A stretch of DNA of 64,000 nucleotides, taken from the NCBI RefSeq assembly GCF_054482595.1, contig NZ_CM137008.1; one strand, written 5' to 3'. The position numbers are program-made. Positions 21,001 to 24,000 of this stretch are shown here, piece by piece (the first letter of the stretch is position 1; each line of letters starts with the position of its first letter).

Positions 21001-24000
21001 CATGTGCGGATTAAATCCCGCGACCCGCACCAGCATCCGGCGATTCTGTTTAACTACATGTCGCACGAGCAGGACTGGCAGGAGTTCCGCGACGCAATTC
21101 GCATCACCCGCGAGATCATGCATCAACCCGCGCTGGATCAGTATCGTGGCCGCGAAATCAGCCCCGGCACGGAATGTCAGACGGATGAACAGCTCGATGA
21201 GTTCGTGCGTAACCACGCCGAAACCGCCTTCCATCCGTGCGGTACCTGCAAAATGGGTTACGACGAGATGTCCGTGGTTGACGGCGAAGGCCGCGTACAC
21301 GGGTTAGAAGGCCTGCGTGTGGTGGATGCGTCGATTATGCCGCAGATTATCACCGGGAATTTGAACGCCACGACAATTATGATTGGCGAGAAAATAGCGG
21401 ATATGATTCGTGGACAGGAAGCGCTGCCGAGGAGCACGGCGGGATATTTTGTGGCAAATGGGATGCCGGTGAGAGCGAAAAAAATGAGTCGTGATTTGAA
21501 CTGACTCAGGAACCGATCAGATTGAGAGTTACCGTTCCAGGTATGGGGACAGAATCGTTATATAAAACATAGGGGTAACTCTCATGCTTCATAGTGACAA
21601 CCTCGCCAGCAAATTCTAAGCTGACTCGTTCAATCTCGCTGATGAAGGTGCTATGAATGCACTGATAAACCGCAGGTGAAATGCCACTCAGCTTAAGAAT
21701 TACGCCGCTAGTGTTCCTGGCTATGGTGACTTGTTCACTCCCGCTCACGGTTAGCATATACGAAAAGGGTTCTTGTAACGAGGACAAAAATAAGTCAGAC
21801 CAAAACAACGTGGAGCTTTAAACACAATTCGTATAATTTATTAACAGTGATTTATTTTTACTCTTCTTTAATTAATCATCATGCTTAAATATTTTTTAGC
21901 ACAAGATTATCGCTTCGCTAACATTTTAGTTTACATTGATTTCCAATTGATAATAAAAAGTTGTTAATAAGTTTATGCGAAAAATAAAAATTGTTGAAAT
22001 ACTCTCCAGCAAATGAATCAAAAATAAACAAATTAATATTTACAAAAAGCAAAAAACTATTTAAGAGAACATCTTTAATTTATTAGCAGAACCCATCAAT
22101 AATGATTTACTTACGACTAAAAAATATCTTACAACAATGTGTTATTGTAAATTAACGGGAATGATATTAAATTTTTATTTTCTACACCACAACTTCATTG
22201 AACGACAAAATGCATATAAAATCAATAAGATAAATAATAAAGACAACCTCATAAGAAATAACGTCAAATATCTCAAAACTACTAAACATCACTAAAACAT
22301 TAGACGTAACACACATCCCCCACGCCCTGTAATTCATAGCTTTTATATTTATTTTTTCACATCAATGTAGATAAAAACACGCATTAAAAATGGCTTGTAG
22401 AAAAGCAGCACAATAAATAGTTCATATTTAGTCTATTGCGTAGAACTACTATTCAAAAAATCTTATTAATGAGATAATGAGATTACATCGATAACGTTCT
22501 GATTGCAGGCATACTTATCTGGGTGTGCCTCTCTTTTTTACAACTGTACACGGTGGCGTATGACGAGAAAATATCTCACACAGGATGAAGTCTACAGGCT
22601 GATGGATGCAGCCCAGAGCATGTCCTTTCCTGAAAGAAATCGCTGTCTAATTATGATGGCTTTCATTCACGGTTTTAGGGCCAGTGAACTTCTTGATTTA
22701 CGTTTATCCGATATTGATGCATCAGGAAAACAACTTAATATTCGGCGGATTAAAAATGGTTTCTCGACAACACATCCTCTTCTTCCTGATGAATATAATT
22801 TGATCAAGTTGTGGCTTAAGCAGAGGAAGTTAATTGAAAACGGAGTTGAAGGAGACTGGCTTTTTCTCTCCCGGAAACGCCGCCCTATCAGCAGACAACA
22901 TTTTTTTTCTATCATTCGTGAGGCTGGAAGACGTGCAGGATTAGCTGTAAAAGCACATCCTCATATGTTACGTCATGCCTGTGGTTTTGCTCTGGCTGAC
23001 AATGGTGTCGATACCCGACTACTTCAGGATTATCTGGGTCATCGAAATATCCAGCATACTGTCAGATACACAGCCAGTAATGCTGCTCGATTTAAAGGGG
23101 TGTGGAAAAAAAAGCCTCGTTAAAACAGTACCTTCTGATTCAAAATGTCAGATTCCTACGTTTTCCTCAATTCTTCCATAAAAAAACAGCCCATTCAATT
23201 CAATAAAACACATAACATGTTGATATTTCTCGCTAAAGTAAAATAACCCCATGATTTGAAATGATTAACCGCCAAGGTCATACCAGTGATTAACTTTCAC
23301 TCATGTTGTTAACATGCAACCAAATTAAAAACAATAAAAATCAAACAAATTAGATTTATATTCCAAGAAAATTAAATATTCAGGCAATTAAACCAAACCT
23401 GACATTTTGAATCAAAATGTCAGGTTTGGTAGCAATGGCGTGGACGAGTCTGAATGAAGAAGCCTCTGGTTATTATCAGTGCCTGTCAGTTCACCAGGCT
23501 GGCACTGGAGTCTCTCATCCCAACGGACAGGTATCTCGTGCGGGTGTACAGCAACGTCACTACAGAGGTTGAATTCATTTTAAAGACCTCCTGTGGCTAC
23601 CTGTTAGCTGATATCCCTTCGCTTCCTTCGGGGGAGTTGGTTCTTCTGGCTTGTCTTGTCCGCTTGCGGAGTGATGCCGGGCAATGGCAGGTCTGCCTGA
23701 CCGGTGACTCCGACTGGTTCGATAATGCTCCTGCTGCAAGTCTGTACTATGGCTTCCCACGCATAAGCACCCTGCTGACAGCGAGTCGTTATCAGAATCA
23801 AATTATCCGCTGGTTACTACGTCCTTTGCCCGGCGATATGAGTGATTTCTGGCTGCTGACTGCACGGGAGTTGAGCGTGCTTAAGATTCTGATGCAGGGC
23901 ATGAGTTTCAGTGAGATTGCCCGTTATGAACAACGCAGTTCAAAGACCCTGCATGCGATTGCCACACGGGCATTAATGAAACTTGGACTGGGAACTCTGA

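What the first reader, a model, noticed from the sequence alone, without database searches (positions are those of the whole stretch)
23124..23453. Candidate fim-type invertible promoter switch bounded by perfect 16-bp inverted repeats
The sequence tgattcaaaatgtcag at 23136-23151 is the exact reverse complement of ctgacattttgaatca at 23399-23414. The repeats bracket an AT-rich, non-coding segment of about 250 bp. The element sits immediately after a FimB/FimE-family tyrosine recombinase gene and 40 bp before a LuxR-type regulator and an autotransporter adhesin. This is the architecture of fimE-fimS-fimA and of the ipuA-ipuS-ipuR-upaE locus reported in uropathogenic E. coli, so inversion would switch the downstream regulator and adhesin ON or OFF. 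The orientation in this assembly cannot be assigned from sequence alone.
Basis: partly seen in the sequence, partly recalled or inferred. Interest (0 to 1): 0.85.

Follow-up and report, generated by a model that had tools for sequence, protein, structure and literature searches.

The report
Known hyxS invertible promoter switch

Summary
The flanking genes are ipbA (also called fimX or hbiF), hyxR, hyxA and hyxB/upaB. This is the hyxS switch of PAI-X, published in 2012, not the ipuA-ipuS-ipuR-upaE locus. Public genomes show the inversion directly. Of 1,891 complete E. coli genomes carrying the locus, 1,778 have the window's orientation and 18 the flipped one, with breakpoints inside the repeats. 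The window matches the UTI89 and CFT073 reference orientation. The best promoter candidate inside the segment points away from hyxR, so this copy is probably OFF (inferred). The 16-bp repeat reads as a 7-bp crossover core (TGATTCA) plus a 9-bp inner binding half-site, and the right end is a full palindromic site. Two side observations were not found in the searchable literature. First, 88 genomes (4.7%) have lost exactly 272 bp between the left repeat and a third, direct copy, in at least three independent events. Second, two near-identical isolates with ipbA truncated by IS66 carry opposite orientations. Verdict: observation confirmed, interpretation supported, element already known.

The parts
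22560..23123 (+). ipbA (= fimX = hbiF), 187-aa Fim-family tyrosine DNA invertase; appears intact
   Evidence: NCBIfam NF007370 'tyrosine-type DNA invertase' 250.8 bits against a cutoff of 221. RefSeq annotation of the 100%-identical XH990 locus. Motifs GFR(40), H135xxR138, H161 and Y170 are present.
23125..23135 (.). IRL outer half-site, a degenerate copy (ACAGTACCTTC)
   Evidence: The 32-nt extended arms are 78-81% alike in both the direct and inverted sense. Similar outer sequences occur in the Salmonella T1 switch (gtacgttc) and in the third locus. Its role as a binding site is inferred.
23136..23151 (+). IRL, 16 bp = 7-bp core TGATTCA (23136-23142) + 9-bp inner half-site AAATGTCAG (23143-23151)
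   Evidence: Identical in every genome examined. The core is conserved in the Salmonella T1 switch, while the half-site differs there.
23152..23398 (.). Invertible interior of hyxS, 247 bp, ~30% GC, non-coding
   Evidence: Found as an exact or near-exact reverse complement between the same flanks in other genomes. 233/247 identical to UTI89 and 230/247 to CFT073 in the same orientation.
23170..23198 (-). Best sigma-70 promoter candidate: -35 TTGAAT (23198-23193), 17-nt spacer, TGn-extended -10 AAGAAT (23175-23170). It faces ipbA in this orientation and would face hyxR after inversion.
   Evidence: Own weight-matrix scan, top internal candidate at 8-9 bits. The -10 region is conserved in the third locus. 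The strict consensus scan found nothing inside the switch. Prediction only.
23399..23414 (-). IRR, 16 bp = inner half-site CTGACATTT (23399-23407) + core TGAATCA (23408-23414)
23408..23423 (+). Third, direct copy of the repeat (TGAATCAAAATGTCAG, 15/16 to IRL) = core + IRR outer half-site AAATGTCAG (23415-23423)
   Evidence: It is the right-hand endpoint of the 272-bp natural deletions.
23392..23430 (.). Perfect palindrome with 19-nt arms centred on base 23411; the complete right-hand recombination site
   Evidence: I2. One arm mismatch in UTI89/CFT073.
23454..24248 (+). hyxR, LuxR/GerE-type regulator, the gene controlled by the switch
   Evidence: Pfam GerE, E = 3.9e-6, residues 135-181. RefSeq annotation. 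Literature.
24402..25163 (+). hyxA, no recognisable domain
   Evidence: RefSeq annotation. No Pfam or NCBIfam hit. Linked to O-antigen chain length in PMC3789825.
25205..27502 (+). hyxB (= upaB), outer-membrane autotransporter adhesin
   Evidence: TIGR01414 autotransporter barrel, E = 1.3e-67. RefSeq annotation. Literature.

Best explanation
[quoted passage not shown] The tyrosine recombinase IpbA/FimX is encoded 12 nt upstream. It binds half-sites flanking a 7-bp core (TGATTCA) at each end of the segment, pairs the two ends in antiparallel alignment, and exchanges strands within the core. This flips the 247-bp interior. The interior carries the promoter for hyxR, and probably for hyxA and hyxB/upaB as well. 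In one orientation the promoter reads into hyxR (ON); in the other it reads back towards ipbA (OFF). This window has the orientation of the UTI89 and CFT073 reference genomes, which is most likely OFF. Shown here: the repeats, the gene identities, both orientations in nature with breakpoints inside the repeats, and sequence identity with the published element. Taken from the literature: FimX catalyses the inversion, and inversion controls hyxR. Inferred here: the core/half-site dissection, the promoter position, and the OFF assignment.
For: Gene identities. Repeat. Identity with the characterised element: the interior is 233/247 identical to UTI89 and 230/247 to CFT073, the repeats are identical, and the betA-ipbA-hyxRAB-ykgH synteny is the same. 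Published description of hyxS: 16-bp repeats, next to fimX, regulates hyxR, inverted by FimX (PMC6083910; PMC6458436; PMC3789825). Natural inversion: an in-silico flipped construct matches contiguously in 16 genomes, and the native arrangement in 1,778. Two more flipped loci carry IS elements. The junctions lie inside the repeats. MEI005 and MEI2A-0323 differ only by an exact reverse complement of the interior plus one SNP. Inversion under phage selection has been reported in E. coli Mt1B1 and E. fergusonii. Core/half-site model: TGATTCA is conserved in the Salmonella T1 switch while its flanks differ, and the third locus has core TGGTTCA with AAATGTCAGAT-type half-sites. OFF assignment: same orientation as UTI89/CFT073. 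hyxS inversion signals appeared only with FimX overexpression. CFT073 recombinase-deletion strains were 'locked OFF'. The best promoter candidate faces away from hyxR. The 1,778:18 skew mirrors the OFF bias reported for the homologous Salmonella switch.
Against: No reads from this isolate were available, so switching in this particular strain is not shown. The original paper (Bateman & Seed 2012) could not be read, so the published boundaries, transcription start and ON/OFF definition come from secondary citations only. The promoter candidate is weak (4/6 + 4/6 hexamer matches), and the strict consensus scan found none in the segment. One paper describes the PAI-X repeats as 9 bp, against 16 bp here and; the 9-10 bp is the part shared with Salmonella.
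Confidence: 0.95

Rival explanations
1. It is hyxS, but the orientation in this window is the ON state. The hyxR promoter would then read rightwards from the plus strand of 23152-23398.
For: Several weak plus-strand promoter-like matches exist, for example TTGTTA-18-AACAAT. No accessible text states which sequence orientation is ON. Homology with the experimentally oriented Salmonella switch could not be used because the interiors do not align.
Against: The orientation is that of the UTI89/CFT073 references and of 94% of carriers. Inversion away from the reference state needed FimX overexpression. CFT073 recombinase-null derivatives were reported as hyxS OFF. The best-scoring internal promoter is on the minus strand.
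Confidence: 0.2
2. It is the ipuA-ipuS-ipuR-upaE switch, the system the reader named as an architectural match, or a direct orthologue of it.
For: Same overall layout: recombinase, AT-rich invertible segment of about 250-260 bp, LuxR-type regulator, autotransporter.
Against: ipuS has 7-bp repeats, with the distal one inside ipuA, and two adjacent recombinase genes. Here the repeats are 16 bp and lie outside the single recombinase gene. RefSeq and synteny identify ipbA, hyxR, hyxA and hyxB between betA and ykgH.
Confidence: 0.01
3. The repeats are a static feature in this strain, such as a relic, an operator palindrome for HyxR, or a hairpin, and no inversion takes place here.
For: The right end is a 39-nt perfect palindrome that could serve as a binding site for a dimeric HTH protein. 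No reads from this isolate exist. 88 genomes have lost the segment altogether, so the switch is dispensable.
Against: ipbA is full length with its catalytic motifs. Both repeats are perfect and identical to those of strains where inversion was demonstrated. Both orientations occur across many lineages.
Confidence: 0.04

Closest known systems
hyxS of UPEC UTI89 / CFT073 (PAI-X; Bateman & Seed 2012, Mol Microbiol 83:908)
   Same: The same element. It has identical 16-bp repeats, an interior 93-94% identical to the two references in the same orientation, the same flanking genes (ipbA/fimX, hyxR, hyxA, hyxB) and the same chromosomal site between betA and ykgH.
   Different: Allelic differences only: 14-17 substitutions or indels in the interior. 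In this lineage the right-hand palindrome is perfect over 19 nt per arm, against one arm mismatch in UTI89/CFT073.
fimS, the type 1 fimbrial switch (FimB/FimE)
   Same: A Fim-family tyrosine recombinase encoded next to a roughly 300-bp invertible promoter. Recombinase half-sites overlap and flank short inverted repeats. IpbA also acts on fimS.
   Different: fimS has 9-bp repeats of unrelated sequence and a 314-bp segment. It has two dedicated recombinases and controls a fimbrial operon directly rather than a regulator. FimB and FimE are reported not to invert hyxS.
ipuS (ipuA/ipuB-ipuS-ipuR-upaE, CFT073)
   Same: Recombinase, invertible segment of about 260 bp, LuxR-type regulator, autotransporter adhesin. 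Half-sites partly similar to hyxS. FimX acts on it.
   Different: 7-bp repeats, one inside the ipuA coding sequence so that inversion changes the IpuA C-terminus. Two recombinase genes, a different island and different downstream genes.
Salmonella T1-antigen switch (STM0716; PMC11294581)
   Same: The recombinase is 72% identical to IpbA. The 7-bp core TGATTCA/TGAATCA is identical, plus three further A/T bases. An interior of about 260 bp, a HyxA-like gene downstream, and a strong OFF bias in deposited genomes.
   Different: The interiors are not alignable and the half-sites differ (AAAAGTTAA-type). No perfect palindromic right end. It controls a polysaccharide biosynthesis cluster, not hyxRAB.

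Membership tests
hyxS (FimX/IpbA-dependent invertible hyxR promoter of PAI-X) | Lies between ipbA/fimX and hyxR in the betA-ykgH island | tested here: met
   RefSeq annotation of a 100%-identical locus and of UTI89/CFT073; NCBIfam and Pfam on the window's own proteins.
hyxS (FimX/IpbA-dependent invertible hyxR promoter of PAI-X) | 16-bp perfect inverted repeats bounding the segment | tested here: met
   The literature gives 16 bp for hyxS.
hyxS (FimX/IpbA-dependent invertible hyxR promoter of PAI-X) | Sequence homology with the element characterised in UTI89 and CFT073 | tested here: met
   Interior 233/247 (UTI89) and 230/247 (CFT073) identical; repeats identical.
hyxS (FimX/IpbA-dependent invertible hyxR promoter of PAI-X) | Inversion catalysed by IpbA/FimX | not testable with these tools
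   Taken from the literature for other strains. Here only that ipbA is intact.
Fim-type tyrosine-recombinase invertible promoter switches | Adjacent FimB/FimE-family tyrosine recombinase with catalytic residues | tested here: met
   NF007370 at 250.8 bits, above its cutoff of 221; R, HxxR, H and Y motifs present.
Fim-type tyrosine-recombinase invertible promoter switches | Segment found in both orientations with breakpoints in the inverted repeats | tested here: met
   1,778 native and 18 flipped genomes, with junctions inside the repeats. Shown at population level, not in this isolate.
Fim-type tyrosine-recombinase invertible promoter switches | Promoter inside the segment that drives the downstream gene in only one orientation | tested here: inconclusive
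   Only a weak candidate, TTGAAT-17-AAGAAT on the minus strand, and none by strict consensus. The literature states the hyxR promoter region is what inverts.
ipuS (ipuA-ipuS-ipuR-upaE) | 7-bp repeats, distal repeat inside ipuA, ipuR/upaE downstream | tested here: not met
   16-bp repeats outside the recombinase gene; the downstream genes are hyxR, hyxA and hyxB.

The most novel reading that the evidence does not exclude
hyxS may have three outcomes rather than two. Its right end is a complete palindromic recombination site (9-bp half-site, 7-bp core, 9-bp half-site), and the core is palindromic except for its central base. The left end could therefore pair with it in direct as well as inverted alignment. 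Direct pairing would excise the 272-bp promoter segment irreversibly. Consistent with this, 88 of 1,891 carrier genomes (4.7%) have exactly this scar, in at least three independent events. The scar has either T (19 genomes) or A (69 genomes) at the central core position, as expected if a heteroduplex across a one-base mismatch were resolved either way. Separately, inversion evidently still occurs in a lineage whose ipbA is cut down to 38 codons, so some other recombinase can act on hyxS, contrary to the published 'FimX only' rule. Neither point was found in the searchable literature.
Probability: 0.3. Interest if true: 0.45.

Novelty: already known. Interest (0 to 1): 0.2.

Why it matters
hyxS is one of three known Fim-recombinase switches in E. 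coli. [quoted passage not shown] Recognising it here gives a correct annotation and a probable phase state (OFF), but no new biology. The side observations could matter more. If a recombinase excises the switch, about one carrier in twenty has permanently lost the ability to phase-vary hyxRAB, which bears on using fimX/PAI-X as a virulence marker. The A-type scar was common among poultry isolates in the listing I saw, but I did not test that association statistically. Inversion without ipbA would also revise the published specificity map of the Fim recombinase network.

Tried and rejected
(1) The primary paper (Bateman & Seed 2012) and Bateman 2013 are not held. The published boundaries and ON/OFF definition could therefore not be read directly. 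(2) The strict sigma-70/terminator scan found no promoter inside the switch, and my softer matrix gives only a weak candidate. (3) A scan of the species-representative genomes for the palindromic core CTGACATTT-N7-AAATGTCAG returned 15 hits, all in unrelated taxa. (4) Transferring ON/OFF from the experimentally oriented Salmonella T1 switch failed because the interiors are not alignable in either orientation. (5) I considered the recombinase of the third, hyx-like locus (81% identical, same half-sites) as the trans-acting enzyme in the ipbA-truncated lineage. That locus is absent from all 5,426 complete genomes. (6) Rfam found no RNA family in the locus. (7) I considered whether the T and A deletion scars prove site-specific excision. 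They do not: slipped-strand mispairing between the 15/16 direct repeats, with or without mismatch repair, can also produce both.

Full report
OBSERVATION. The sequence TGATTCAAAATGTCAG at 23136-23151 is the exact reverse complement of CTGACATTTTGAATCA at 23399-23414. It is the only spaced perfect 16-mer inverted repeat in the window. The other perfect 16-mer matches are two hairpin palindromes, one of which contains the right arm itself. Thirty dinucleotide-preserving shuffles of the whole 64-kb window gave longest spaced inverted repeats of 11-15 nt and never 16. The arms extend to 32 nt at 81% complementarity. The interior (23152-23398) is 247 nt and about 30% GC, with no ORF longer than 34 codons.

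WHAT IT IS. The 187-aa ORF at 22560-23123 scores above the curated cutoff for NCBIfam 'tyrosine-type DNA invertase' (250.8 bits against 221) and keeps the R / HxxR / H / Y motifs. The ORF at 23454-24248 has a GerE/LuxR helix-turn-helix. The ORF ending at 27502 has an autotransporter barrel. A megablast of 22500-24300 finds the locus in 1,903 of 5,426 complete E. coli genomes, annotated ipbA ('also known as HbiF and FimX'), hyxR, hyxA and hyxB, between betA and ykgH. That is PAI-X. Its switch, hyxS, is described in the literature as lying next to fimX, having 16-bp inverted repeats, controlling hyxR and being inverted by FimX (PMC6083910; PMC6458436; PMC3789825). The window's interior is 233/247 identical to UTI89 and 230/247 to CFT073, the two strains in which hyxS was characterised, and the repeats are identical. 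It is not ipuS, which has 7-bp repeats, one of them inside ipuA.

EVIDENCE THAT IT INVERTS. I built an in-silico flipped version of 23136-23414 between its native flanks. It matches contiguously in 16 complete genomes, while the native arrangement matches in 1,778. Two further flipped loci carry IS insertions, and a short junction probe independently recovered the flipped set, giving 18 in total. Sequence identity to the window holds through IRL, is lost in the interior, and resumes at IRR. The interiors are reverse complements. Experimental inversion is on record for UTI89 and CFT073, under phage selection in E. coli Mt1B1, and in E. fergusonii.

HOW IT MOST LIKELY WORKS. Each end reads as a tyrosine-recombinase core site. 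IRL is ACAGTACCTTC | TGATTCA | AAATGTCAG. IRR is CTGACATTT | TGAATCA | AAATGTCAG. The 16-bp repeat is therefore a 7-bp crossover core plus the 9-bp inner half-site. Related switches support this reading. The Salmonella T1 switch, whose recombinase is 72% identical, keeps the TGATTCA core but has different half-sites. A third hyx-like locus has core TGGTTCA with AAATGTCAGAT-type half-sites and again a near-palindromic right end. This fits the published statement that Fim recombinases bind half-sites overlapping and flanking the repeats. The dissection itself is my inference. In this orientation both extended half-sites (…AAATGTCAGGTTTGG) sit together at IRR. After flipping there is one at each end. 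By analogy with fimS, that could underlie a directional bias (inference only).

ON OR OFF. The original paper is not held, so I rely on four indirect lines. First, the window has the UTI89/CFT073 reference orientation. Second, departure from that state was detected only with FimX overexpression, and CFT073 recombinase-null strains were reported as hyxS OFF. Third, the best internal promoter candidate is -35 TTGAAT (23198-23193), a 17-nt spacer and a TGn-extended -10 AAGAAT (23175-23170) on the minus strand. It faces ipbA here, and after flipping its -10 would end 74 nt upstream of the hyxR ATG. Its -10 region is conserved in the third locus. Fourth, the 1,778:18 skew parallels the OFF bias of the Salmonella homologue. 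I put OFF at about 0.8.

SIDE FINDING 1: PRECISE LOSS OF THE SWITCH. Because the right end is a palindrome, a third copy of the repeat lies in direct orientation at 23408-23423 (15/16 identical to IRL). A hypothetical junction joining IRL to the sequence after this copy matched as a single piece in real genomes. The flanks occur in 1,891 genomes but the interior in only 1,798. Junction probes of 38 nt found 19 genomes with …CCTTC TGATTCA AAATGTCAG GTTTTG… and 69 with TGAATCA at the core (sequences). In these genomes the ipbA-hyxR gap is 58 nt instead of 330. Clone D i14 (T-type) has 0/539 differences from intact CFT073. FDAARGOS_943 (T-type) is 11 differences away. Three sampled A-type genomes share a third haplotype. 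So there were at least three independent events. Site-specific excision with heteroduplex resolution explains both scar types, but slipped-strand deletion between the direct repeats can too. I cannot decide between them from sequence.

SIDE FINDING 2: INVERSION WITHOUT ipbA. Seven genomes, mostly from dogs or a veterinary setting, have ipbA cut to its last 114 nt by an IS66-family element. Six are flipped and one is not. MEI005 and MEI2A-0323, both from Bern, have identical flanks over about 3.5 kb. Their interiors are exact reverse complements apart from one SNP. This implies inversion after the truncation, which conflicts with 'only FimX inverts hyxS' unless another recombinase is involved. 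I could not identify one.

COMPARISON AND VERDICT. The element is a member of the published hyxS family on every feature testable here. It works like fimS and ipuS and shares its core with the Salmonella T1 switch. The two side findings were not found in the searchable literature. They are the only parts that might be new.

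Noticed in passing
window 23136-23423; L024, L025, L028-L030: 88 of 1,891 PAI-X genomes have lost exactly 272 bp between IRL and the direct third copy of the repeat, leaving one hybrid site and a 58-nt ipbA-hyxR gap. There are two scar types (core TGATTCA in 19 genomes, TGAATCA in 69, many from poultry) and at least three independent events.
   Followed up: partly
L003, L026, L027 (homologous to window 23007-23460): A lineage, mostly from dogs or veterinary sources, has ipbA truncated to 114 nt by an IS66-family element. 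Six genomes are flipped and one is not. MEI005 and MEI2A-0323 differ only by inversion of the interior plus one SNP, which implies ipbA-independent inversion.
   Followed up: partly
L007, L008, L025; hits H1 and H38 (homologous to window 23150-24250): IS elements recur in and around the switch. There is an IS3-family element inside a flipped hyxS (CUVET18-565). E-93, also flipped, has ISVsa5 between the switch and hyxR plus an IS3-family element in hyxR. MSB2_1A (flipped) has IS26, THO-010 has IS2, and FDAARGOS_943 has IS2 in hyxR plus a frameshifted ipbA. Three of the 18 flipped loci carry an IS insertion and six more have ipbA truncated by IS66, so half have a lesion, but I did not do a like-for-like comparison with native loci.
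   Followed up: no
L034-L036: A paralogous hyx-like module sits next to acetoin genes (budA/budB-type) in draft assemblies labelled E. coli. It has a recombinase 81% identical to IpbA, a switch with core TGGTTCA and the same AAATGTCAG half-sites, a HyxR-like protein 51% identical, and a 900-aa autotransporter. It is absent from all 5,426 complete E. coli genomes. L034 and L035 differ by a 41-nt indel inside the switch.
   Followed up: partly
window 21750-22530: About 0.8 kb of 23-30% GC non-coding DNA lies between betA and ipbA, with only a 44-codon annotated hypothetical ORF (about 22182-22316, minus strand). A terminator-like hairpin at 22507-22530 ends only 30 nt before the ipbA start codon, which leaves little room for an ipbA promoter.
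   Followed up: no
window 28450-28490: A perfect palindrome with 20-nt arms and a 1-nt centre lies between the convergent genes ykgH and ykgG. It is probably a bidirectional terminator.
   Followed up: no
window 3175-3429 and 60008-60206: Rfam gathering-threshold hits: three tandem naRNA4 (CssrE) copies on the plus strand, and one IS009 element on the minus strand.
   Followed up: no
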